A DNA stretch of 64,000 bases from positions 1 through 64,000 of the forward strand of contig CAUYUJ010000035.1 of NCBI GenBank assembly GCA_963575745.1, given 5' to 3'. The position numbers and the translations under genes were made by a program. This document shows, in pieces, positions 4,728-57,694 of this stretch. Source of the stretch: Prorocentrum cordatum. Lineage: Eukaryota. Each line of letters begins with the position of its first letter. Within the stretch, counting starts at the first letter, position 1. The notes under the pieces are model-generated. The model made no database searches, had not been told where the DNA came from, and saw only the letters and a list, made by a program, of their open reading frames with translations.

Positions 4728-5752
4728 CATGATGGACCCACGAACCCGGAAAGGGATAAAGACATGTGCAGCATGGTCACGTTTTCACGATACCCAACTG
4801 GGCGACATCTCACGAAACATCCCACGAGACACCCCGCGAAACATCCCACGAGACACCTCACGAAACATTCCACGAGACACCTCACGAAACATTCCACGAG
4901 ACACCCCGTGAAACATTCCACGAGACACCCCACGAACAGGCAACCACTCAACCAGACACGCCACGAAACATTCCACGGGGGTGCGACTGGGTGTGGTCGT
5001 GCTGGGGTGTGGTGCTGGGGTGTGGTCGTGCTGGGGAGTGGTCGTGCTGGGGTGTGGTCGTGTGGGGGGTGGTCGTGCTGGGGGGTGGTCGTCGTCGTGC
5101 TGGGGGGTGGTCGTGCTGGGGCGTGGTCGTGCTGGGGCGTGGTCGTGCTGGGGCGTGGTCGTGCTGGGGTGTGGTCGTGCTGTGGTGAGGTCGTGCTGGG
5201 GTGTGGTCGTGCTGGGGTGTGGTCTTGCTGGGGTAGGGTCGTGCTGGGGTCGGGTCGTGCTGGGGTGTGGTCGTGCTGGGGTATGGTCGTGCTGGGGTGG
5301 GGTCGTGCTGGGGTGGGGTCGTGCTGGGGTCTGGTCGTGCTGGGGTGTGGTCGTGCTGGGGTATGGTCGTGCTAGGGTGGGGTCGTGCATTTCGCTCGAG
5401 ACATCCTGCCAAAATTCCAGGAAATCGTACAAAAACAAACGAATTAGTCGAGACATCATCGAAATTCCTTCGCGCGGGGCGCTTTTCCGCGTCGCGGTCG
5501 GCTCTGCAAAACAAGCGTTTCGCTCGAGACATCCTCCAAACTCTGCAAAACCAGCGTTTCGCTCGAGACATCCTCAACAACAAATTCTGAAAAACAAGCG
5601 TTTCGCTCGAGACATCCTCAAATTTTAATTCGCCGGCCTCCTTCGACCTCGATATTTATCAGGGAAAAAATTCGCCGGCCTCCTTCAAGTTGGCACCGGG
5701 GGACAGGTTTACCAACTAAAAGAGAACCCTGGGCCCGAGCCCTTTCCGGGAA
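4728..5752 (-). mobile_element. Helitron2/Helentron-like non-autonomous element, copy D (subfamily 2)
   Basis: Same termini and internal 22-bp and 15-bp arrays as copy C. Abuts the end of copy A across a short A-run. Confidence 0.72.
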
Positions 5753-6759
5753 TAATGTTGCAGGATTTCCTTATTGTTTCAATTGGGCCTCCTATCATTT
5801 CGTGAGGCTGAGGGAGGAAGGAGTGAAGGAGAGAGAAGGGAGGAGGAAAAGGGACACAACGGGAAAAGGGGAGCAGGAGACAGGGATCAGGAGGAGGGAA
5901 GGATGAGAAGAGAGAGTGTCTCGTGGCAGTCTCCCGGGGGCGGCTCTGGGGTGTCTTCAAAACCTTCCTGGAGGCTGTTGCGGGCGTCTCGTGGTTTCGT
6001 GGGGCCTCTTGGGGGCCACTCGGGTTTCTCGGGGTCTCTCGGGGGGGGGGGGCACCGCTGTCTGCCGTAGGAGAAGCGGAGGCGGCTCCTTTTCAAAGGT
6101 GCAGTACGCGGACGCCCTCGCTGTCCTTGCATTGGCAACGGCCACAGCTGCGCAGCGCGCCCGCTTGAGGCACTCACGCCTTTAGGCGGGGCTTCGCAGA
6201 CGAGGCCCTCCAGCAGAGAGGGCCGGCAACGCTGCTTCTCAGCGGCGGCCGGAAGGGTTTGGCCGCCTTTTGCTACCATGCCAGCGCCCAGGGCTGGGGT
6301 GCCATCACAGCTGCTGAATGGCTGGTAGATCATTCCGATTTCAGCGACAGCGAGCAGGGCTGAGCTTGGCGTCTTGTGCGCTGGGGCGCTCCAAAAACAG
6401 GATCACGATGTCTTTATCTCAGGCGCTGTTGCGCAGACCGTCGCCTCCTGGTGCATTTGAGAGTCTCGAGAGTCTCGGGGCGCGGTCAACGAGGCTCAAG
6501 CCAGGCAACGTTTGTCCCCCGTGTCCCTTGCTGGCGCAAAGGCGCCGGCCTAGAGCCATGCCTAGAACTCCACAACTCGAGGGCTAAGCGGAAGGGCCCC
6601 GGGGCTTTCATACGCCATTCAAAGAGCGGGCCAGGCTTCCAGAGGTGATTTTCCGATAATCGCATGTTGAAAACGGTCCCCCCCTCCATCCGTGCAACAG
6701 CTGGAAGCGGAGGATGGGTAGGAGGAGGAGCGCACATAGCTGGGAAGACGGTGCCACAG

Positions 6760-39110: not shown

Positions 39111-39960
39111 CGGGCGTTTCGCCGACTACGTGAACGTCGAGGGCGAGTGCCTTCAAGGCCACCGCCCGCCGCCGCCGGGCTGGGAAAGGGGATTGGGGGG
39201 GAAGAGAGAAGGGCAAGGGCGAGGGGGAGGAGGGGGGGAAAAGATGAGCTGGAGAAGTGGGAGAGGGAGGGGGAAGGAAAAGGGAGAAGAACCTAGAGGA
39301 GGAGCAGGAGCAGGAGCCAGAGCACAGAGCAGGAGGTTAGAGAAGGGAGAAGGACGGGCGAAGAGGAGTAGGAGGGGGAGGGGGGGGAGGAGGAGGAGGG
39401 GGATGGAGGAGGAGAAGGAGGAGGAGGGAGAGGAGGCCAAAGCAGACGATGCGCACATCGTCATGTCCCGCAGGTCGCAGCGACGGCCTGGTGCCGTCGC
39501 CGCGTCGATGATTGGCCAAGCACGGGCACGGGCGCGGGCACGGGCGACGGCCTGGCGCCGTCGCCGCGACGGGCGAGAGCACGGGCGTCGGCCCGGGCTG
39601 GACGGGCGTCGGGCTGGGCCGGACCGGGCCGGGCCGAGAGCACGGGCGTCGATAACGATTGGGCCGGGCGGGCGTCGATAACGATTGGGCCGGGCGGCCG
39701 ATTGGGCCCTCGAGAGGCCCCAGGCAGGGGCCCAGGGCCCCCTCGAGAGGCCAGTTGCTGGACATCCTCATCCTCCTCGTCTTCCTCCGCCTCCTCCTAC
39801 TCCTCATCCTACTCCTTTTCCTCCTCCTCCTCCCTCCTCTTGTTCCTCTGCCTTCTCCTCGTCCTCGTTCTCCTCCTCCTCCTCCTCCTCCTCCTCCTTC
39901 TCCTCCTCCTTCTCCTCCTCCTCATATGCCTCCTCCTCCTCGGCATTGGCAGAGGCTCAA

Positions 39961-41453
39961 TCAGGCCTCCGCCGAGTCGGCGGGGCTGTCCTCCACCGCC
40001 GCCTGGATATTATCCTGGCCGTCGTCGGCGCTGAACTTGGCCCTCTTCTTCGCCCCGTCGTCGCCTCCCGCGAGCTTGTTCAACTTTGCTGCCGGCCGTT
40101 TTTTCTCTGACGAGGCTTTGGCCATGGCCTTCGACTTCTTTGCTGGAGCTCCCCCTTCTTGGCGCTGGCCTTGGCTTTCGACTTCTTTGCTGGAGTCTCG
40201 ATGGCACCATCGTCGGCAGCTTCTTCATCTGGGTCGTCCTCTGCCTCCCCCTCATCATCTCCCTGCTCTTGTCCGTCATCCTCGGCGCACTCATTGCCAT
40301 CGTGGCCCTCGTCATCGTGCGGCTCGTCCTTCTCCGCGAAGAGGGCCGCCAACGCAGGCTGGTAGATCGGCGATCCCTCCTGTTGAATGATCTCCCACGT
40401 CTTTGTCTCCAGGAACTCGATGACAGCCGTCTTGTGCGCCTCTGTGAGGCAGAACCCTATGCACGGCAACTTGTGAACGACGCAATACAGCGCCCTGCCC
40501 CCGGTGCCAACCGTCAAGTCGACGTGGCCGACTGCTGGCCACGAGTGAGATACTTCGGAATCCAGAACCAGGGGATGGCAGTGGTAGAACGGAGGCTCCT
40601 TCCCGTCGCCGTAGTCAGGCTTGTCGGTCTTCTCCTTCGTCGCGCCCCCAACTGCGATATTCGCAGCCTTGCCGAAGATCTCCTTCACCTGCTCCGTCGG
40701 CACACGTAACATGTCATCTGAGTTGTTCCACTTGGCGGCCTGGATGTATCCGATGATCTCCCCCTGGTTTGTCCCCTCGAAATACTTGTGGTCTTTGCCA
40801 ATCACGCGCGAGGCTGAGGCAGTAATCAAGGATAAGTGCTCGACCTGGGCCACTGGCCCCACGCTTCCACGGTTACGGGACAATCGAAGTCTCAACGATT
40901 TCTCACTGTAAATACATTTTACCACTCTCGAAGACTTCGTCATGGCAGCCCCCTCGACGTTCGTGAAGGGCTTCCCGGTGAGCTGCACATCGTTGCCGTG
41001 CTTCATGCCGTCGTAGATCACGTACAGGTCGCCGTCCTTGAGCGCCTCTGCGGTGCCGCCGCGTGCCCGGATAGCGGCCCCGATCATCTTCGCAGCGTGG
41101 CCGCCCGCGTTCCTCAATGGCGGAACCCTGATGTGTGGTTGTGAGTTCGCACGGCCAGCTACTTTTGGATCATAAGTGATATGCACGAAAGAGTTGCCAA
41201 TCTTGTTGCCCCGATCATCGTGATCGATGTCCCCGGTGACCGTTGCCACGTTGCTCTCTGCGATGAGGGCGCTGACTTGCTGGTCGGTGTTGGGCTCCAC
41301 CTCCGGCCTGATAGTGCTCACCAGGCGCTTGGCGTAGTTCTGGAACCTCACCAGCTTGCTCTGCTTGTCCTCCGACATCGGCTTGGCTGGGGCCACGCGG
41401 GCAAACTTCACAAGGTCAAGATTGGCGTCATCGTCGGCTGGCGGCCTCAGAAT
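39961..41453 (-). pseudogene. Exon 2 of a gene encoding a divergent beta-class N4/N6 DNA-methyltransferase-like domain with acidic and Lys-rich tails
   Basis: Over 440 codons of non-repetitive open frame. Motif order TVTGD / NSFVHITYDPK / LKDGDLYVIYD / QVEHL / FYHCHP / VDLTVGTG / IGFC. A frameshift near 40150 continues PAKKSKA...DSAEA* to 39961. CTAG|ATT acceptor is in frame. Confidence 0.55.
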
Positions 41454-41468
41454 CTAGAGCGAACCAAA

Positions 41469-42949
41469 CATGATCGACCCGCAAACCCGGAAAGGAATAA
41501 AGAAACGCAAGGCGTGGCAACGTTTCAAAGACACTTGATTGGACGATGGGCACATGCGATGCTGAATGTGTCGGTCTTGATGTACTGTGCCGAGGGCTGT
41601 GCGATGCTACGCCGTGCTGAACTGCGATGTGCCGTGCCACGTTGTGGATCGAGTCATCCTTGGTATCCGAGTCCTGACCGGACTGATCATCTGATCTGGA
41701 CCTTAAGCTCGAGCTGCCTGAGCAGATGGTAGCTGCCCCAGAACTCTTCGACAGAAGGGGCATGCCAGGAGGGCGCGCCGCGGAACGCTCCGGGGAACGC
41801 GCCAGGCGACGTGCCAGGCACGCGCCATGGGGCCGCACCGCGGGACGTGCCCAGGGGGCGCGCCACGGAGCGTGCCAGTGGACGTGCCGCGGGACGCGCC
41901 AGGAGACGCGCCGCGCAACGCGCCAGGCAGATTCGCCGCGGAACGCGCCAGAGAACGTGCCAAAGTGCAATGTTGAGAGTATCGATCTTAGATGATGTAC
42001 CGTGCCGACGTTGTGCTTTGATGGGCCGTGATCCATGCCACGATTGTGCTCTATATAGGGTTGTGGATCGAATCCTTTGTGCATCGAGCCTTGACCGAAC
42101 TGATTTGGATTTTGAGCTCAAGCTGCCTCAGCACGTGGTAGCTGCCCCAGAAATAATCGACAGGGGGACGTGCCAGGAGGGCGCGCCGCGGAACGTGCCA
42201 AGGAACGCGCCAGGCGACGTGCCAGGGGACGCGCCATCAATGGGCACGCGCCGCGGGACGTGCCAAGGGGACGCGCTACGGAACATGGACGTGCCGCGGG
42301 ACGCGCCAGGGGGGCTCGCCACGGGACGTTCCGCAGAACGTGCCAGGCAACATGCCAGGTTGCAATGGTAAGGGTATCGATATTGATGTGCCGTGCCAAG
42401 AGCTGTGCTGTGCCTGGGCGACCTGGACACGTGAAAAACACGCGTTTCGCTCAAGACGTTTTCAGCACATCATCATGCTAGACATCCGCATCGGCAAATG
42501 GACACGTACAAACAAGCGTCTCGATCGAGACGTCCTCGACACATCCGCATGCTAGACATCCGCCTGGGCGACCCGGACACGTGAAAACAAGCGTCTGGTT
42601 TGAGACATCCTCAACAAATCCCCATGCTAGACATCAGCCTGGGCAACCTGGAGGCGTGAAACCAAGCGTCTCGCTCGAGAGATCCTCAAGACCTGGGCAC
42701 GTAAAAACGAGCATGTCACTTGAGAGATCCTCTGAATTCAGGCCCCCAGGAGAGGACAATATATAACACAACACAAATCCTCAACAACTTCTGCGACCAC
42801 CAGCGTTTCGCTCGAGACATCCTCAAACTTGAATTCGCCTGCCCACCTCGACCTCGATATTCATCGCAGAAGTTAGCCGGCCCACCTCAAGTCAAACCCA
42901 GGGGTAAACCATCTAAAAGAGAACTTTGGGACGGTGCCTTTTCCGGGAA
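41469..42949 (-). mobile_element. Helitron2/Helentron-like non-autonomous element, copy F (subfamily 1, diverged), inside the putative intron
   Basis: CATGATCGACCCGCAAACCCGGAAAGG ... AAAGAGAACTTTGGGACGGTGCCTTTTCCGGGAA, with the same satellite units as copy B. Confidence 0.7.
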
Positions 42950-43541
42950 AAACTCACCCCCCCGCCCTCCTCCGGCCACCCCCCCTTGCGCCCACCTGCT
43001 CTTTATCCAGGGCCCCAGGGCCGCTCGACAGACAATGTGCAATTCAAACGGTTTTGCAGGGTGACCTTAAGTTAAAACAATTGCGACACCGGCGTGGTCC
43101 GAGAAGCTCCCCCGCTACGATTCGGGTTCGCATCTCACGAAATTTGCGTTCGCCGCCCACGTCAGAACCCGACCGGACAGAGACCAGGCGCCACCCCCCC
43201 TTCGGGCTCGCGAGACGACCACCTTGCGATCCATGTTTCACTCTCTGTCTCTTTTTATTGTCATGCATGTCATTTTGGTCGCCGTCGCCCCTCCACCTCC
43301 TCGATGTCGTCTTCCTCATCGTCCTTATTCTGTCTTTCCGTCTCCTCCCACACTGGCGCCCCAACGCCGACTCCTACTGCCCGCGGGCATCCAAGATAGC
43401 CCAGGGGATCTCAAGAGGGCCCTGGATAATTTCCCATGATAGGGGGAGGGATAGGGATCGAGAGAAACCAGCCGGCTTCCAGGAGGACTCCGAAACAAAA
43501 TCCAGAGGGCCCATCGAAAGGGCACATTGGGGGGGACTGAC

Positions 43542-44413
43542 TGTGACGTCACCTCCTCTCCCGAAGCTGAGCGTGGCGCTCGCTGTCCAGGCTCGACGCA
43601 TCGACGGCGGGCGTGCTCGTCTTCTCAACTGGAGGCTCTGGGGGCTCGCCGGACATCGCTTTCTCCTGTTCGTACTTCTCAACCACAATGTCCAGCATAT
43701 CTGAAATCCCTGCAATGGAAATCGCATCGGCTGGTGTTTTTTTGTTTTTTCACGTGGCCCATTAGGATGTCGTCGTCCTTCTCATTGCTGTAGATCAACA
43801 TCTCAACAACGCTGAAATACTCCTCCGCGGAGTCTGGCCACCCGCACCTCCAGGTCTGCGGGGGCGTCGTGGCATCACGTGGGTACCCCATCTTCTCCCG
43901 GTAAGTCGTGAAAGAGCCCAAAACGTTATGAACGGCATCACGGATCGCAGGTTTCCATGGTGTGTGAGAATTGGCCCAATCTTCCAAATTTTTGAGGAGC
44001 CCCTTTTTGAAAAGACAGAGGTGGACCAGGCCCTTGCCGTTGAAGCCGGGCACGGTACCCTTGCACTCCCTCAGAGAAATCCCCTTGGTCAAGATACCGC
44101 ACTTGTGCATGTCCCAGACCCGGCGACCCTTTGGAGGGCAGGCGTGCGTCAACATTATGCCCCTAAGGATGCAAGCGCACTTGAACGCCCCCCCAAAAAA
44201 AACGCACGCGATCGGCGACCCTAAGACGAAAGTTTGGTCCGGGCCCAAAGGCCTGCCCAAAGACCCCAGGGTTTCTTCTGAGACCCAAAGGCTATGTTCC
44301 AATACCTCATGGCAATTCTTAAGGGGCATGGATGTGATCCGAGGTGTTATTTCCCAGAGCTCCGGACTATCAAAAGTGTTATTGAAATCGTTCCCCAATC
44401 GGCCCTTGCCCAC
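43542..44413 (-). pseudogene. Exon 1 (5'-truncated, frameshifted) of the same MTase-like gene; function of this region unknown
   Basis: The 244-aa ORF has globular-looking composition and continues after A-run slippage as KTPADAISIAGISDMLDIVVEKYEQEK. Candidate donor ACA|GTCAGT at 43542/43541. Linkage to exon 2 is inferred. Confidence 0.45.
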
Positions 44414-44534
44414 GTCGGGGCCCTAGCAGGTTCGCGTGGTTAGGGGTGCGGGTGGCCGATTTTGGTGGCCAGCCCGGTGTTTGGACGGTGCCCGGGGGTG
44501 CCCGGGTGCCCTGGGGTACCCGGAGGTGCCCGGT

Positions 44535-44760: not shown

Positions 44761-44922
44761 ATAATCTTAAAGCATATCTGATGGGTTCCTTTCCCCCAGT
44801 ATCATTCGGTTATTTCAAGCCAGGGGTCGGTCTAAGAGAAAGGATCACAGTTGGGATCGTTCGACTATGTATTGCAATGGTATCAGGCCAGCGCCTCCGA
44901 TCCGGAAACGCTTCCAACGCGA

Positions 44923-45022
44923 NNNNNNNNNNNNNNNNNNNNNNNNNNNNNNNNNNNNNNNNNNNNNNNNNNNNNNNNNNNNNNNNNNNNNNNNNNNNNN
45001 NNNNNNNNNNNNNNNNNNNNNN
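44923..45022. other. Assembly gap (100 N)
   Basis: N run. Confidence 1.
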
Positions 45023-45482
45023 TAGCGCCGCGCAAATTCGTTTTCAATTGTTTGCAAGAGCTTCACGGATTGAGGACGGCTTCTTTTCAACATGTAGCTC
45101 TCGCCTTAGCGCCGCGCGCATTCGTTTTTTGTTCCATTAAACATGTAAGAATTTCGCGGGTTCCCCATGACCAGCGTACCAGAAAAGGTGCTTGGGAAGG
45201 ATTCAGAATTATGAGGGCGCAAAGTTACGTTGATTCGCGGTGTTGAAGTCCCAGGAATGGCGTTCTGGCACGACTCGAGATCGTCAATATGCACCTGTCA
45301 GGTTGATCCGTGGCGTTGGAATGCCGCGAAAGATGTTTTGGCATCCTTCAGGTTCTTCAAGCGGTTGTCTTCAAACGAGTCAGTTCAATCAGTGGAAATG
45401 AACCCTTGCAGGGGCCTGTGAAGAGCGAGCTTGAAGGGAGGGTTGATTCCAACATCGTTGATGATTCTTGGGTTTGCACTGG
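45023..45482 (+). mobile_element. Dispersed SINE-like element copy 3 (5' part lost in the gap)
   Basis: TAGCGCCGCGCA units, then ATGAACCCTTGCAGGGGCCT...CATCGTTGATGATTCTTGGGTTTGCACTGG followed by a long (TCC)n tract. Confidence 0.6.
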
Positions 45483-47760: not shown

Positions 47761-47919
47761 ATAGCAAAGGTACGAGCGATGCAGGTAAGGAGGCAGGGGG
47801 CACTCTGAGGCAGGAGGCAGGAGGAAAATGCTGGAGGAGGAGGAGAAGGAGGAGGAGGAGGAGGAGCAGGAGGAGCAGGAGGAGGAGGAGGAGGAGGAGG
47901 AGGAGGAGGAGGAAGAGGA

Positions 47920-49435
47920 TTTTTGCCGCTGCACCACTCTGCCCACACATCCTGTGCACGAATTCGCCGGTGACAAGGTACTCCATCCCAACGCGCTCCG
48001 TGGAAGAGACGAGGTACGCGGAGAAGAAGCCGAGCCAAACGGTGCTGAACAGGGATGGCGGTAACCCTGGCTCCGCCTCCGAATGCACAACCAGGCGGGC
48101 CTTGAGGAGAGCCCGTCAATTGAGGGAGAATGGGTTCTAGAAAACCTGGTTGCCAACTGCATCGGCAGGGCCATTGACAATGTCGAAGCAGGCAGGGCAC
48201 AGGACAGAGTCGCAGACAACGCACAAACGCAGCAGAGAGCCAGGTTCCAGAACACCATCGCATACCTTACACTGATACATGTCGCTACTGCGCGTGCTGA
48301 CCGTTGCAGATTTTCAACCATCTCCAACATGCGCCAGACAGCCGCAGGTGCCCGTACCCAGAAAGAGAGCGGCAGGGCCGTACGTGGATTGGGCATACGC
48401 GTAATTGTAATTGTCGCAACTATCTGAAACAAGAGGCGAAGCTGGCACATGGGCACCATTATCTTATGGATCTTCGACACCACCGTACTGCCCGACAACG
48501 AAGCCAGTAACGTCAGTGTCAACAACTCTGCTTTCCACTCTGCTATTCGTCTGAACACGATTCCGATCGAATCATCGCGCGGCCGAGCCCTGCGCCCAGA
48601 TGGAATCCGTATCCATTTCGCAGACAGCCCCTTCCGACGCAGGGCGATCCAAAGAAAAAGCGGCGTCCCCGGGGGCCGTCCTCAGCGAACTCCAGCTTCC
48701 CGAAACCCTGCTCCGAGCGCAAATCGACTGCCACGTCCATGTGAGAATCCCCGACGGAAGTGCCGTCGGCCAGCCTCGACTCTTCACACGCGGCCCCCCC
48801 CCCTGCAGCGCAGACAGCAGCACGTCGACGTCGCACGACCAGGAGGCGAGGAAGTGTTGGACCGCACCTGGCAGGAAGCGGGTGGCCTCCGCGCGCAGCT
48901 CCGTAGGGGCGACCCGCGGCTCGACCGAAGGAAGCCGTTGTGCGGAGGTTCGGTGTCGCAGATCTCGACGTCGACGCTCTCCTGGGCAGGCTGCCGAGGG
49001 CCCAGGTGCGGGCCGCGCCTTGCCGCGCGCAGCTGGCGCGTGCTAGCGCGTGCCACGTCCACACCAGGAGCCTCGGCATGAAGAGCCACGTCACGGCGCA
49101 GCTTGTCCGCGGGCAGTGGGCGCCGCCCGCGGAGAAGCGAGGCGAGGGCAGGGGCCACGGCGATCAGCCGCTGGACCACCTCCTCGTCCCCGAGTGCCTC
49201 CATGAGCGCCTCGTACTTCGATCGGGCCTCAGACAGCTCCCTCGAAAGCCGCAGGACGAGCGCGTCGGCGGACGCCCGTGCCCCCGCGGCTCCGCGCAGG
49301 CGCCGCCGGCCCTGCGCAGATCCGGCTGCTGCGCACGCCGCGGAAGGGGGCGGCGGCAGCGTCCCGCGCCACCGCGGGTCCCGCGCGCGCCGAAAGCGGG
49401 CGGAACACCAGGCCTTGAGCCAAAACGGCTACGGA
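47920..49435 (-). pseudogene. Spliced-leader-headed retrocopy or retroelement 5' portion with a decayed ORF and Cys-rich zinc finger, embedded in (TCC)n
   Basis: SL at 49414-49435. ORF segment EALGDEEVVQRLIAVAPALASLL...LRRDVALHAEAPG. CKVC-x10-CVVC-x4-CPAC at ~48188-48271. Ends AAAAA then TCC repeats. Confidence 0.6.
49414..49435 (-). other. Dinoflagellate spliced leader relic, 21/22
   Basis: Reverse complement reads TCCGTAGCCGTTTTGGCTCAAG. Confidence 0.9.
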
Positions 49436-50315
49436 GGAGGACGAAGAGGAGGAGGAGGAGGAGGAGGAGGAGGAGGAGGAGGAGGAGGAGGAGGAGGAGT
49501 GGAGACCACAGTGCCCTATCCAAACGAGAGCCCAACACACAGGAGGCTTGGGGGGAGAGAAACAAATGCTTTCAGGACCCCCCCCCCAGGGGCCCAATCC
49601 AGGTTCTTGCCTCTCTTCCACGAAGTCTGGAGCCAACGAAGGTCTTTGCTTCGTGCCCCCGAAACTCTCTGATGCGCGTGCGCCCCCCCGGCTCGGCGAA
49701 GGAGCAGCGTGCGCCGATCCTGGGCCCAGGATGGGCCTGGCCCGGCGGGGGGCGGTGGCCGTGGACACGTCGGCGGTTTCCGGTTCGGCGTTGCGACACT
49801 GGGCGGAGGGGGGGGGGGGAGAGGGGGGGTGGTCTGGCTCCGGACCTCTGCTGGATGCGCCTGCTCGAAGCGGGCGCCAATGGGGGAGACTCCGCCTGCT
49901 CGAAGCGGGCGCCAAGAACAGCCAAGATCTACTGCATGGTGGGGGGGTAGGGAGGGGGGGGGTAGGGGGGGGGCGAGGGCCCGCGCCGATCGGCAAAACA
50001 GTGAATACAAAAACGATCACCAAAGACTTGTTTGTTTTTGTTTTAGACGCGGGTTGGAATCAAGCGCGAACTCCTGGGCAGCAGCGGGACCGAAGGAGGG
50101 CCCGCAAAAAGGCAGCGACCGAGCGCAGAATCGAGGCCTGCATAGACTTGTGGAGGTCCGCGTGGGTTTCTTGGTGGACAATGGAACAAACGAATCCACA
50201 CCCCACCTGCGGCCCCACAAACAACCGGAATTCATGAGACATGCAAACTGCATATCTCATGAATTCCGGCTTGCAGTTTTGGCGTGGTAGACGCCACGGC
50301 CCCCGATGGGCCGCA

Positions 50316-56120: not shown

Positions 56121-56146
56121 AAAGAGGAGGAAGAGGAGGAGGAGAA

Positions 56147-57694
56147 CATGATCGACCCACGAACCCGGAAAGGAATATAGAACTGTAACACATGGCAGCG
56201 TTTTCAAAGACACCTGATTGGGTGACGGGCAAATGCAATGCTGAGTATATCGATCTTGATGTACCCTGCCGAGGGCTGTGCTGTGCTGCACCGTGCTGAA
56301 TTGCGATGCGCCATGGCGCGATTGTGCTCTATAGCGTCGTGGATCGAGTCCTCCTTTGCATCCGAGTCCTGACCGAACTGATCTGGATCTTAAGCTCGAG
56401 CTGCCTGAACACATCATAACTGCCCCAGAGCTAATGGACAAGGGAACATGCCAGGAGGACGCGCGCGAAACGTCCAAAGGGATGCGCCAGGCGACGTGCC
56501 AAGGGACGTGCCATGGGGTCGCGCGAGACATCCTCGGAACCCCTGCGAGCGGGACGTGAAAACAAGCATTTCGCCTGAGGCATCCTCTGAGTTCTGGCCC
56601 CCCACGAGACCCCCGCTCGAGACATCCCCTAATTTTGCAAAACCAGTGTTTCGCTCGAGATATCTTTAACAAATTATGAAAAATAAACATTTCGCTCGAA
56701 ACATCTTCAACAACTTATGAAAAACAAGCGTCTCGCTCGAGACATCCTGCCAAAATTCAAAGACATCCTCGAAAAACAAATGAATTAGTCAAGGCATCCT
56801 CGAAATTCCTGCGCGCGGGACGCGGCACGCGCGAGACACCCTCTGAATTCGTGCGAGCGGGACATGAAAACAAGCATTTCGCCTGAGACATCCTCTGAAT
56901 TCTGGCCTCCCGCGAGGCCCCCGCTAGAGACAGCCCCCAATTTTGCAAAACCAGCGTTTCGCTCGAGACATCCTGAACAAATTGTAAAAAACAAGCGTTT
57001 CGCTCGAGACATCCGGTCAAAACCCAAAGACATCCTGGCAAAACAAACGAATTAGTCGAGACATCCTCGAAAATCCTGCGTGCGGGACGCGGCACGCGCG
57101 AGACATCCTCGGAACCCCTGCGAGCGGGACGTGAAAACAAGCATTTCGCCTGAGGCATCCTCTGAATTCTGGCCCCCCACGAGACCCCCGCTCGAGACAT
57201 CCCCTAATTTTGCAAAACCAGTGTTTCGCTCGAGATATCTTTAACAAATTATGAAAATAAGCATTTCGCTCGAGACATCCTGCCAAAATTTATGGAAATC
57301 TTAGAAAAACAAACGAATTAGTCGAGGCATCCTCGAAATTCCTGCGCGCGGGACGCGGCACGCGCGATACATCCTCGGAATTCCTGCGCGCGGGGCGCTG
57401 TTCCGCGTCGCGGTCGGGGCTCCAGACTGCGGGTTATTACGATGATTCTGCTAAAATTGCCCCACATCCTCTTTTTTACAAAAAGAAAGCGGTGGTCCGC
57501 GGACCCCGTTATTTATCGAGGATCCAAAATGGGGGGTCGACTTTCCTCGAGCGGGCACGCGCGAAACGCATTTTTTTCACGCCGAATTGGACATTACCAT
57601 TTTTTATCGAGCGGAATTCCGTCGGCCCCCTCCAAATCAAAACCGGGGGTAAAACATCTAAAAGAGAACCCTGGGCCCACGCCCTTTCCGGGAA
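56147..57694 (-). mobile_element. Helitron2/Helentron-like non-autonomous element, copy G (subfamily 1)
   Basis: CATGATCGACCCACGAACCCGGAAAGG ... GGGCCCACGCCCTTTCCGGGAA, inserted at an AA within a (GAG)n tract. Confidence 0.75.

What the first reader, a model, noticed from the sequence alone, without database searches (positions are those of the whole stretch)
39961..44413. Divergent beta-class amino-DNA-methyltransferase-like gene with an altered catalytic motif
Seen: the only long non-repetitive ORF in the window (40080-41453, minus). Established: beta-class N4/N6 MTases (Pfam N6_N4_Mtase) run motif III (GD), IV (SVDLIxTDPPY), VI (LKPGGxLxI), VIII (HExIL), TRD, X (HPxxKP), I (LDPFxGSG), II (IGIE). 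The ORF shows TVTGD, NSFVHITYDPK, LKDGDLYVIYD, QVEHLSL, FYHCHP, VDLTVGTG and IGFC in that order with plausible spacing. It is followed by an acidic tract and a Lys-rich PAKKSKA tail typical of nuclear proteins. Inference: a prokaryote/phage-type MTase fold adapted in a dinoflagellate, with DPPY replaced by YDPK and the SAM-binding acidic residue replaced. It could be an enzyme with changed chemistry or a catalytically dead DNA-binding protein. This matters because dinoflagellate DNA is heavily base-modified. This copy is frameshifted.
Basis: partly seen in the sequence, partly recalled or inferred. Interest (0 to 1): 0.8.

Follow-up and report, generated by a model that had tools for sequence, protein, structure and literature searches.

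The report
Dinoflagellate ParB-linked methyltransferase-like gene
This is a real dinoflagellate gene from a large unannotated protein family that keeps the shape of a phage-type DNA methyltransferase but has lost the residues such enzymes use, so it more likely binds DNA than methylates it.

Summary

The catalytic motif is missing in the whole family. None of 204 proteins has (D/N/S)PP(Y/F/W). D-x-K sits at that site in 119 of 146. The canonical motif II position is acidic in 0 of 167, and GxG survives in 83 of 169.

New here:
- ORF 43682-44422 is the preceding exon. A 2107-nt GT..AG intron full of dispersed repeats separates the two.
- Both frameshifts lie in homopolymer runs and are absent from independent contigs.

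My best reading is a non-methylating, probably nuclear, DNA-binding pseudoenzyme; an enzyme with altered chemistry is not excluded. Earlier notes of this scan report similar ParB-methylase-like genes elsewhere in this genome. I found no publication describing the family.

The parts
39961..39963 (-). Stop codon (TGA) of the frame-corrected tail
   Evidence: Sequence. The frame starting at 40149 ends here with a single stop.
39964..40150 (-). Lys/Ala-rich basic tail, read in the frame that resembles the relatives' tails
   Evidence: Relatives carry similar Lys-rich tails containing a ...KLKKL... stretch.
40151..40155 (-). G5 run holding frame break 2 of the window sequence
   Evidence: for the sequence. 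table 4: the single X1 contig covering this place (depth 6.15) has one extra base behind 40150.
40156..40328 (-). Acidic tract and start of the basic PAKKSKA tail
   Evidence: Translation. Acidic and basic tails are shared by relatives.
40362..41318 (-). Beta-class amino-methyltransferase-like fold (model residues 21-339)
   Evidence: Model at pLDDT 94.0 and pTM 0.92. Foldseek and VIA-align matches.
41163..41174 (-). Y-D-P-K, directly after the strand taken to be beta-4. This is the place of the (D/N/S)PP(Y/F/W) catalytic motif IV.
   Evidence: Secondary structure. Family counts. The register is an inference.
40572..40589 (-). F-Y-H-C-H-P, candidate motif X
   Evidence: Non-significant hhalign alignments. 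P287 is kept in 157 of 172 and H291 in 141 of 171.
40500..40520 (-). D-L-T-V-G-T-G, candidate motif I (cofactor loop)
   Evidence: hhalign and strand E282-287 of the model. GxG is kept in only 83 of 169 relatives.
40449..40460 (-). I-G-F-C, candidate motif II, with Cys where the methyltransferases have the ribose-binding acid
   Evidence: hhalign. The position is acidic in 0 of 167.
41319..41445 (-). Start of exon B: linker and the N-terminal helix before the methyltransferase-like core. It includes the ATG at 41376-41378.
   Evidence: The proposed acceptor CTGAG|G lies at 41446|41445.
41446..43552 (-). Proposed intron, 2107 nt, GT..AG, in frame
   Evidence: A single alignment with relatives spans the junction. 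It has not been tested with RNA.
41466..42953 (.). Dispersed high-copy repeat filling most of the intron
   Evidence: blastn found copies at 1-2336, 5511-5755 and 56145-57694 at about 70-80% identity. Contig depth is roughly 9e2-4.6e4 here against about 5-6 over the exons.
43553..44242 (-). Exon A: the end of the ParB-like/helical module and the linker (W-x-x-G-W-P-x-S-A-E region)
   Evidence: tblastn of relatives. The profile of the N-terminal domain matches at positions 327-422, E 2.7e-19.
43745..43750 (-). A6 run holding frame break 1 of the window sequence
   Evidence: table 4: the single X1 contig covering this place (depth 5.87) lacks one base at 43745.
44243..44422 (-). Open-frame extension with no similarity to relatives, probably not coding for this protein
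   Evidence: no match upstream of 44242.

Best explanation
The region 39961-44242 (minus strand) holds the last two exons of a gene of a Prorocentrum-like dinoflagellate. The gene belongs to a large, unannotated protein family.

Full-length members have four parts: (i) a ParB-like N-terminal domain plus a helix-turn-helix DNA-binding domain, (ii) a linker, (iii) a domain with the fold of beta-class N6-adenine/N4-cytosine DNA methyltransferases, and (iv) an acidic tract followed by a Lys-rich tail. This is the architecture of phage and prophage ParB-N6_N4 methyltransferase fusions, from which the family most likely descends (inference).

The methyltransferase-like domain has lost three things in the whole family: the catalytic (D/N/S)PP(Y/F/W) motif, the acidic residue of motif II, and, in half of the members, the glycine loop of motif I. 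It has gained its own conserved set: Y-D-x-K-x-x-G-E, P-H-x-R, D148, E205, K256, G-G and H340.

I therefore read it as a pseudo-methyltransferase that keeps the DNA-gripping scaffold but does not transfer methyl groups to amino groups of bases. It would work with the ParB-like module as a nuclear DNA-binding protein.

Shown: the gene is real, the folds, the motif losses, the exon structure by homology, and the architecture of relatives. Inferred: the phage origin, loss of catalysis, DNA binding and nuclear location.
For: Gene and family:
- E 1.6e-111 to the closest relatives.
- 926 clusters at E<=1e-3, 354 at <=1e-10 and 30 at <=1e-30.

Fold of the C-terminal domain:
- Model at pLDDT 94.0 and pTM 0.92 from a 67-sequence alignment.
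- Foldseek against the PDB gave 22 matches at E<=1e-3. All listed rows at that level are beta-class DNA methyltransferases.
- BFVD: 20 matches at E<=1e-3. The named ones are N4C/N6A methyltransferases of giant viruses and phages.
- A language-model search gave N6_N4_Mtase clusters as leads at 0.87 and 0.86.

Motif loss:
- 0 of 204 family proteins contain [DNS]PP[YFWH] anywhere.
- D..K at positions 95/97 in 119 of 146.
- An aromatic residue or His at position 98 in 2 of 146.
- GxG in 83 of 169.
- An acid at position 335 in 0 of 167.

Family-specific conservation: R109 in 144 of 147, D148 in 156 of 161, E205 in 169 of 178, K256 in 162 of 181, H340 in 161 of 167.

ParB-like module of the long forms:
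- Model at pLDDT 82.8.
- The top 11 Foldseek rows are all ParB, Noc, KorB or Spo0J, with a best E of 0.021 and probability 0.95.

Phage precedent: ParB-CTPase fused to PF01555 is enriched in phages and prophages (PMC12704722, passages read).

Gene structure:
- Relatives match both ORFs colinearly.
- A read-through with X at both breaks and the intron removed has no stop. It aligns as one HSP across the junction: residues 75-614 against P0013 1-509, E 8e-72.
- The GT donor and AG|G acceptor fit the splice motifs reported for P. cordatum (PMC10666404, Table 2 passage).

Tail: an acidic tract and Lys-rich tail are shared by relatives.
Against: - No sequence-profile method links the domain to PF01555. 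hhalign reaches only E 0.06-0.12 at probability below 1%. The motif-by-motif mapping therefore rests on predicted secondary structure and the ranges of the structural alignments, not on a residue-level superposition.
- The family keeps many invariant charged and His residues, and half of its members keep GxG. That would also fit a working active site with different chemistry.
- E or D stands three residues after the canonical motif II position in 96 of 167 and might substitute for the lost acid.
- The window holds only the last part of the ParB-like module.
- DNA binding, nuclear location and expression were not tested.
Confidence: 0.55

Rival explanations
1. It is an active enzyme with altered chemistry. 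The methyltransferase-like domain would still bind SAM or another nucleotide-like cofactor and modify DNA or RNA through the conserved Y-D-x-K / E101 / R109 / D148 / E205 / K256 / H340 set, for example acting on a base other than an exocyclic amine.
For: - Near-invariant polar residues: R109 in 144 of 147, D148 in 156 of 161, E205 in 169 of 178, H340 in 161 of 167.
- D95 is retained at the first position of motif IV in 132 of 146.
- D312 is retained in 115 of 171, and at least one glycine of the loop in 128 of 169.
- The window copy itself has D-L-T-V-G-T-G.
Against: - The three features that define SAM-dependent amino-methylation are missing family-wide.
- The cofactor loop varies freely among members, with forms such as DLTGASP, DFTMADA and HCTALEE. 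That is unusual for an obligate cofactor site.
- No candidate reaction can be derived from the sequence.
Confidence: 0.25
2. The family is mainly cargo or a gene of mobile elements. Its size would then reflect selfish spread, and the protein would serve the element, for example by marking or protecting its DNA, rather than the host.
For: - 926 clusters at 50% identity.
- Many copies are fragmentary.
- ParB-methyltransferase fusions are typical of phages and prophages (PMC12704722 passages).
- Earlier unchecked notes of this scan describe ParB-like genes inside DNA transposons of the same genome.
- This gene sits in repeat-rich DNA.
Against: - No transposase, integrase or reverse-transcriptase domain was found in 47 plus 122 ORFs of the window.
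- The only long inverted repeats around the gene are GAG/CTC microsatellites.
- Contig depth over the exons is about 5-6, against roughly 9e2-4.6e4 for the intronic repeat. This particular gene is therefore low-copy at 90% likeness or more.
- It has a spliceosomal-type intron and a host-like tail.
Confidence: 0.15
3. This particular copy is a decaying pseudogene: 5'-truncated, frameshifted twice and interrupted by a repeat insertion rather than by an intron.
For: - The window sequence has two frame breaks.
- The first 326 positions of the N-terminal domain profile are not found anywhere in the window.
- An assembly gap lies about 500 nt upstream.
- The sequence between the exons is mostly dispersed repeat.
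Against: - Both breaks sit in homopolymer runs and are absent from independent contigs that are 96-99% identical.
- Apart from these breaks the 724-codon read-through has no stop.
- The interruption has in-frame GT..AG|G boundaries.
- Long repeat-bearing introns are the rule in P. cordatum, with a mean of 4709 nt (PMC10666404 passage).
- A 140-aa fragment in EukProt is 97% identical to this protein.
Confidence: 0.2

Closest known systems
Beta-class N6-adenine/N4-cytosine DNA methyltransferases (Pfam N6_N4_Mtase, PF01555): CcrM, M.RsrI, M.PvuII, M.MboIIA, M1.HpyAVI, M.BceJIV, type III Mod subunits, and the rotifer N4CMT
   Different: - No profile-level sequence similarity.
- No (D/N/S)PP(Y/F/W) in 0 of 204 proteins.
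- No acid at the motif II position (0 of 167).
- The glycine loop is kept in only 83 of 169.
- It has its own conserved motifs and a eukaryote-type acidic/basic tail.
Phage and prophage ParB-CTPase + N6_N4 methyltransferase fusion proteins (PF02195 + PF01555)
   Same: The same domain order in the long family members: a ParB-like N-terminal domain and helix-turn-helix, then the beta-class methyltransferase fold. The fusion is described as enriched in phages in PMC12704722 (passages).
   Different: - The family is eukaryotic, with an intron in this copy.
- Neither domain is detectable by Pfam. Of 30 long or medium members scanned, 29 had no family at E<=0.01 and one had a single unrelated sub-threshold match.
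- The methyltransferase motifs are lost.
- The ParB P-motif arginine is not evident.
- tblastn against 50,697 phage records found no match.
Catalytically inactive methyltransferase-fold partners such as METTL14, the ciliate MTA9, and the DIRS1 retrotransposon methyltransferase-like domain
   Same: A methyltransferase fold is retained while the active-site motifs are disrupted, with a proposed nucleic-acid-binding or scaffold role. The inactive METTL14 and DIRS1 domains are described in PMC4738411 (passages).
Phage ParB proteins that activate thymine dioxygenases (5mYOX) on double-stranded DNA
   Same: A ParB-fold protein working in DNA base modification rather than in segregation (PMC13229309, abstract and passages). 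Dinoflagellate DNA is rich in 5-hydroxymethyluracil made by TET/JBP homologues (PMC11572971, passages).
   Different: Those ParBs lack an obvious DNA-binding domain and are not fused to a methyltransferase fold. I have no evidence of any link between this family and a dioxygenase. None was found in this window.

Membership tests
Beta-class amino-DNA-methyltransferases (N6_N4_Mtase, PF01555) | Rossmann-like SAM-methyltransferase fold with the beta-class permuted order (IV-VIII, target-recognition insert, X, I-II) | tested here: met
Beta-class amino-DNA-methyltransferases (N6_N4_Mtase, PF01555) | Profile match to PF01555 at the gathering score | tested here: not met
   No PF01555 match for the window protein even at E<=10. 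PF01555 is not among the 25 families listed for the 67 aligned members; the families below that list are matched by few members each. hhalign against a YhdJ-family profile gave E 0.06-0.12.
Beta-class amino-DNA-methyltransferases (N6_N4_Mtase, PF01555) | Catalytic motif IV (D/N/S)-P-P-(Y/F/W) after strand beta-4 | tested here: not met
   0 of 204 family proteins contain [DNS]PP[YFWH] anywhere. At the site, D..K occurs in 119 of 146 and an aromatic residue or His at the fourth position in 2 of 146.
Beta-class amino-DNA-methyltransferases (N6_N4_Mtase, PF01555) | Motif I glycine loop (D/E-x-F-x-G-x-G) | tested here: inconclusive
   The window copy has D-L-T-V-G-T-G. In the family D312 is kept in 115 of 171 and GxG in 83 of 169. 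The mapping rests on a non-significant hhalign alignment plus the predicted strand.
Beta-class amino-DNA-methyltransferases (N6_N4_Mtase, PF01555) | Motif II acidic residue at the end of strand beta-2 (binds the SAM ribose) | tested here: not met
   Position 335 is C, V, T or A and is acidic in 0 of 167. E or D occurs three residues later in 96 of 167. The mapping has the same basis as for motif I.
Beta-class amino-DNA-methyltransferases (N6_N4_Mtase, PF01555) | SAM binding and methyl transfer to N6 of adenine or N4 of cytosine | not testable with these tools
   This needs biochemistry. No model coordinates or ligand docking were available.
ParB-methyltransferase fusion proteins (ParB N-terminal domain + HTH + PF01555) | ParB/sulfiredoxin-fold N-terminal domain and HTH domain in the same polypeptide, upstream of the methyltransferase fold | tested here: met
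ParB-methyltransferase fusion proteins (ParB N-terminal domain + HTH + PF01555) | The same architecture in the window's own copy | tested here: inconclusive
   Only profile positions 327-422 of the 453-position N-terminal profile match the window, at ORF 43682-44422. An assembly gap lies upstream at about 44922-45023. Further exons may lie outside the window or be lost.
ParB-methyltransferase fusion proteins (ParB N-terminal domain + HTH + PF01555) | ParB nucleotide-binding P-motif (GxxRxxA arginine) | tested here: inconclusive
   The conservation listing shows G-x-Y-x-C-G-x-N-x-F after the strand and no conserved arginine motif. No residue-level structural alignment was available.
MT-A70 family (METTL3/METTL14, ciliate MTA1/AMT1) | Closest structural relatives are MT-A70 domains | tested here: not met

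The most novel reading that the evidence does not exclude
Dinoflagellates took up a phage ParB-methyltransferase fusion, switched off its methyl transfer and expanded it into hundreds of lineages of nuclear ParB-type DNA clamps. These would help organise or mark the histone-poor, 5-hydroxymethyluracil-rich chromosomes. One possible mode is base-flipping or DNA-opening cofactors for thymine dioxygenases, in the way phage ParB activates 5mYOX on double-stranded DNA.
Probability: 0.12. Interest if true: 0.85.

Novelty: new variant of a known kind. Interest (0 to 1): 0.6.

Why it matters
Dinoflagellate chromosomes are permanently condensed, poor in histones and heavily base-modified. Several of their chromatin proteins came from viruses or bacteria. 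About half of the P. cordatum gene models are 'dark' (PMC10666404 passage).

This work gives one large dark family a structural identity: a ParB-like DNA-binding module joined to a motif-degenerate beta-class methyltransferase fold. A domain-based survey of ParB folds in eukaryotes used Pfam cut-offs (PMC12704722 methods passage). It would have missed this family, because Pfam detects neither domain.

The result gives concrete things to test: SAM, NTP and DNA binding, preference for modified bases, and nuclear location. If the family is inactive, it is a large example of a eukaryote domesticating a phage DNA-modification enzyme as a scaffold. If it is active, it is a candidate for an unknown DNA modification.

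Tried and rejected
- **Sequence searches with no useful hit.**
  - Pfam on the two window ORFs gave only a chance CDC45 tail match.
  - PDB sequences by phmmer and by profile gave nothing relevant.
  - PHROGs and NCBIfam matched only the low-complexity tail.
  - Pfam on 30 long or medium relatives gave nothing relevant.
- **hhalign.** The family profile against E. coli YhdJ or an 18-sequence YhdJ-family profile was not significant. A permissive run aligned the N-terminal half in a register that contradicts the predicted secondary structure, so I did not use it.
- **Upstream ORF alone.** It had no relatives at E<=1e-3 in the word-indexed search. Its kinship showed only through tblastn of family proteins.
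- **Whole genome.** None is held for this window.
- **Related loci.** Alignment A2 was too diverse for the locus finder. With A1, viral contigs gave none. The one metagenome locus, L004, is a false positive: 44% G+C and no profile match. tblastn of P0021 against phages found no match.
- **RNA evidence.** No RNA holder was listed. The one run laid (X1) behaves like genomic DNA, since its contigs run across both splice sites. The intron is therefore untested.
- **Homodimer test** of the methyltransferase-like domain: no verdict.
- **Transposon ends.** The inverted repeats around the gene are GAG/CTC microsatellites only.
- **Neighbouring kinase-AlkB-like gene,** a lead from earlier notes: not found among 47 plus 122 ORFs. 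Short exons could be missed.
- **Earlier findings by sequence:** none for P0001 or P0020.
- **Organism names.** Of 30 clusters looked up, only 2 carry an organism name, so the family's taxonomic range is open.
- **Literature.** Full-text searches found no description of this family. I read passages only, no supplements, and subscription journals are not covered.


Full report
**Observation.** The minus-strand ORF 40080-41453 exists, with 457 codons from stop to stop. ORF length proves little in this 60% G+C window, which has 121 stop-to-stop ORFs of 200 aa or more. The protein nevertheless has real relatives. A word-indexed search found three of about 425 aa at 45-53% identity, with E down to 1.6e-111. 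An exhaustive HMMER search of 1.84 billion cluster representatives found 926 at E<=1e-3, 354 at <=1e-10 and 30 at <=1e-30. No curated library recognises it. Pfam, PHROGs, NCBIfam and PDB sequence searches gave nothing, or only matches to the low-complexity tail.

**Fold of the ORF product.** I aligned residues 26-385 with 66 relatives and had the structure predicted. The model has mean pLDDT 94.0 and pTM 0.92.
- Foldseek against the PDB returned 22 matches at E<=1e-3. Every listed row at that level is a beta-class N6-adenine or N4-cytosine DNA methyltransferase: M1.HpyAVI, M.BceJIV, the Mbo45V Mod subunit, TTHA0409, CcrM and M.RsrI. M.MboIIA, the rotifer N4CMT and M.PvuII follow just below that level.
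- The viral structure library gave the same answer: N4C/N6A methyltransferases of pandoraviruses, Megaviridae and phages, with a best E of 5.6e-6.
- A protein-language-model search listed N6_N4_Mtase clusters as leads at 0.87 and 0.86.

**Motifs.** The structural alignments begin at model residue 21-22. They place the strand at model 23-27 opposite the N-terminal strand of the enzymes. The predicted order of elements then follows the enzymes: strand 64-69, helix 89-105, strand 117-122, strands 149-157 and 179-186, helix 270-279, strand 282-287 and strand 306-310.

On this basis F-V-H-I-T-Y is strand beta-4, and the residues after it occupy the place of D-P-P-Y. The likely register is D-P-K-V. 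L-K-D-G-D-L-Y-V-I-Y-D is motif VI, and Q-V-E-H-L is motif VIII. F-Y-H-C-H-P, D-L-T-V-G-T-G and I-G-F-C align with motifs X, I and II of the E. coli YhdJ family in hhalign. Those alignments are not significant (E 0.06-0.12), so the residue mapping is an inference.

Counts over 204 family proteins aligned to the family profile:
- None contains [DNS]PP[YFWH] anywhere.
- D95 is kept in 132 of 146 and K97 in 120 of 147. Both are kept in 119 of 146.
- The position of the stacking aromatic is aromatic or His in 2 of 146.
- The canonical motif II position is never acidic (0 of 167: C 95, V 30, T 24, A 15). E or D stands three residues later in 96 of 167.
- Both glycines of motif I are kept in 83 of 169, with variants such as DLTGASP, DFTMADA and HCTALEE.

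The family also has its own near-invariant residues: G100 (138 of 147), R109 (144 of 147), D148 (156 of 161), E205 (169 of 178), K256 (162 of 181), G269/G270, P287 and H340 (161 of 167).

**The family is longer than the ORF.** tblastn of the family proteins against the window showed a second match. The ORF at 43682-44422 (-) matches the segment that lies just N-terminal of the methyltransferase-like domain in longer relatives. Examples are P0021 residues 445-592 and P0013 residues 1-97. About 25 relatives of 700-1100 aa share a further N-terminal region of about 450 aa.

I folded a 453-aa partial P. cordatum protein that equals the first half of the 967-aa P0020, using a 29-sequence alignment. 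The model has pLDDT 82.8 and pTM 0.80.
- Foldseek found no match at E<=1e-3, but its top 11 rows are all ParB, Noc, KorB or Spo0J. The best is Noc at E 0.021 and probability 0.95.

These values are middling, but they are consistent and cover nearly the whole target chains. The full-length architecture is thus a ParB-like N-terminal domain, a helix-turn-helix, a linker, the beta-class methyltransferase-like domain and an acidic/basic tail. According to a 2025 survey, ParB-CTPase folds fused to PF01555 are enriched in phages and prophages (PMC12704722, passages read). That survey searched eukaryotes with Pfam cut-offs (methods passage), and Pfam sees neither domain of this family.

**Gene structure in the window.**
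- The upstream ORF changes frame in an A-run at 43745-43750. In the other frame it continues to a donor AG|GTGACG at 43553|43552.
- An acceptor CTGAG|G at 41446|41445 joins in frame with the main ORF.
- The 2107-nt interval consists mostly of a dispersed repeat at 41466-42953. Copies lie at 1-2336, 5511-5755 and 56145-57694, at about 70-80% identity.
- The tail changes frame at the G-run 40151-40155 and then ends at TGA 39963-39961.
- With X at both breaks and the intron removed, the 724-codon reading has no stop. It aligns as single HSPs across the junction: residues 75-614 against P0013 1-509 (E 8e-72), and 55-602 against P0180 451-976.
- The GT donor, the AG|G acceptor and a long repeat-bearing intron agree with what is reported for P. 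cordatum. There, donors are GT in 24.7% of introns, acceptors are AGG in 79.7%, and mean intron length is 4709 nt (PMC10666404, Table 2 passage).
- Only positions 327-422 of the N-terminal domain profile are found in the window. An assembly gap lies at about 44922-45023. This copy either has further exons beyond the gap or is 5'-truncated.

**Independent reads.** One public run (X1, no RNA label) holds part of the stretch. Its contigs are 96-99% identical over the exons, with depth about 5-6. They run unspliced across both splice sites, so they behave as genomic DNA and say nothing about splicing. Over the intronic repeat the summed depth is roughly 9e2 to 4.6e4. The single contig that covers each break has one extra base behind 40150 and lacks one base at 43745. 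This removes both frame breaks. The breaks are therefore either homopolymer errors of the assembly or differences from an intact allele or very close paralogue.

**Organism and range.** Of 30 clusters looked up, two carry names. P0020 is from Prorocentrum cordatum, also labelled Polarella glacialis in nr. P0005 is a 140-aa fragment 97% identical to the window protein, filed in EukProt under 'Pyramimonas sp. CCMP1952'. The window's G+C of about 0.60 matches the 59.7% reported for P. cordatum. The other clusters come from unnamed environmental assemblies, many on 3.6-5 kb contigs that hold one 900-1100-aa ORF. The family's taxonomic range is open.

**Context.** No other Pfam domain was found in 47 higher-complexity ORFs of the whole window. 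The same holds for 122 ORFs between 28 and 54 kb, apart from two short matches below the cut-off. The long inverted repeats around the gene are GAG/CTC microsatellites, not terminal repeats.

Earlier notes of this scan, unchecked AI notes on other pieces of the same genome, describe ParB-like/beta-class methylase-like genes beside a kinase-AlkB-like gene. They also describe ParB-like genes inside DNA transposons. I could not find the kinase-AlkB partner here, and I could not fetch other loci of the family.

**How it most likely works.** Three defining features of SAM-dependent amino-methylation are absent or eroded across the whole family. The fold and a new set of invariant residues are kept, and a DNA-binding ParB-like module is attached.

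I judge the most likely function to be sequence- or structure-directed DNA binding without methyl transfer (confidence 0.55). That would make it a pseudoenzyme comparable in principle to METTL14 or the DIRS1 methyltransferase-like domain (PMC4738411 passages). The acidic and Lys-rich tail suggests a nuclear location, which is an inference.

An enzyme with altered chemistry remains possible (0.25), because many polar residues are invariant and half of the members keep the glycine loop. A mainly selfish, mobile-element role (0.15) and decay of this particular copy (0.2) lie on separate axes and are not excluded.

The boldest reading ties the family to the unusual chromatin and 5hmU-rich DNA of dinoflagellates. 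It rests on an analogy with phage ParB proteins that activate thymine dioxygenases on double-stranded DNA (PMC13229309, abstract and passages). Nothing I found links the two directly.

**Novelty.** Seven full-text searches, and passages of the papers cited above, gave no description of this family. I read passages and abstracts only, opened no supplements, and subscription journals are not covered. I rate it a new variant of a known kind: a eukaryotic, intron-bearing, motif-degenerate and greatly expanded derivative of the phage ParB-N6/N4 methyltransferase fusion.

Noticed in passing
window 41466-42953; copies at 1-2336, 5511-5755, 56145-57694: A dispersed repeat family at about 70-80% identity between copies, with internal 75-nt tandem units at 42412-42689. 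Summed contig depth in run X1 is roughly 9e2-4.6e4 over it, against about 5-6 over the flanking exons. It is therefore one of the very high-copy repeats of this genome. It has no Pfam-detectable coding capacity.
   Followed up: partly
window about 44922-45023: A run of N (an assembly gap of about 100 bases) lies about 500 nt upstream of the last homologous part of the gene. The missing ParB-like exons may simply be unassembled or lie beyond it.
   Followed up: no
proteins P0005, P0176, P0177: Fragments filed in EukProt under the green alga 'Pyramimonas sp. CCMP1952' are 97% identical to this window's protein, or fall in the 90% cluster of a Prorocentrum cordatum protein. That data set seems to contain Prorocentrum-like sequences, through mislabelling or contamination.
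   Followed up: no
window 39765-39960, 47833-47919, 49415-49499: A long (CTC)n/(GAG)n-type microsatellite starts directly after the stop codon of the gene. Complementary tracts lie 8-9.5 kb away. They dominate the inverted-repeat search and mimic terminal inverted repeats.
   Followed up: partly
P0021 residues 110-600: The language-model search put the N-terminal, ParB-like half nearest to fungal DUF3723 (PF12520) clusters, at score 0.92-0.93 but with only 134-139 shared features. This raises the untested possibility that DUF3723 is also ParB-like. A search for papers holding both terms found none.
   Followed up: partly
locus L004: The only metagenome locus returned for the family is a false positive: 44% G+C, and no match to either family profile at E<0.04.
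   Followed up: yes
family alignment, P0001 positions 291, 303, 324, 335, 340: Conserved His and Cys residues sit on the elements that form the SAM pocket in true methyltransferases: H291 in 141 of 171, H303 in 130 of 171, C324 in 89 of 169, C335 in 95 of 167 and H340 in 161 of 167. They might form a metal site or a plug filling that pocket. I could not check this without model coordinates.
   Followed up: no
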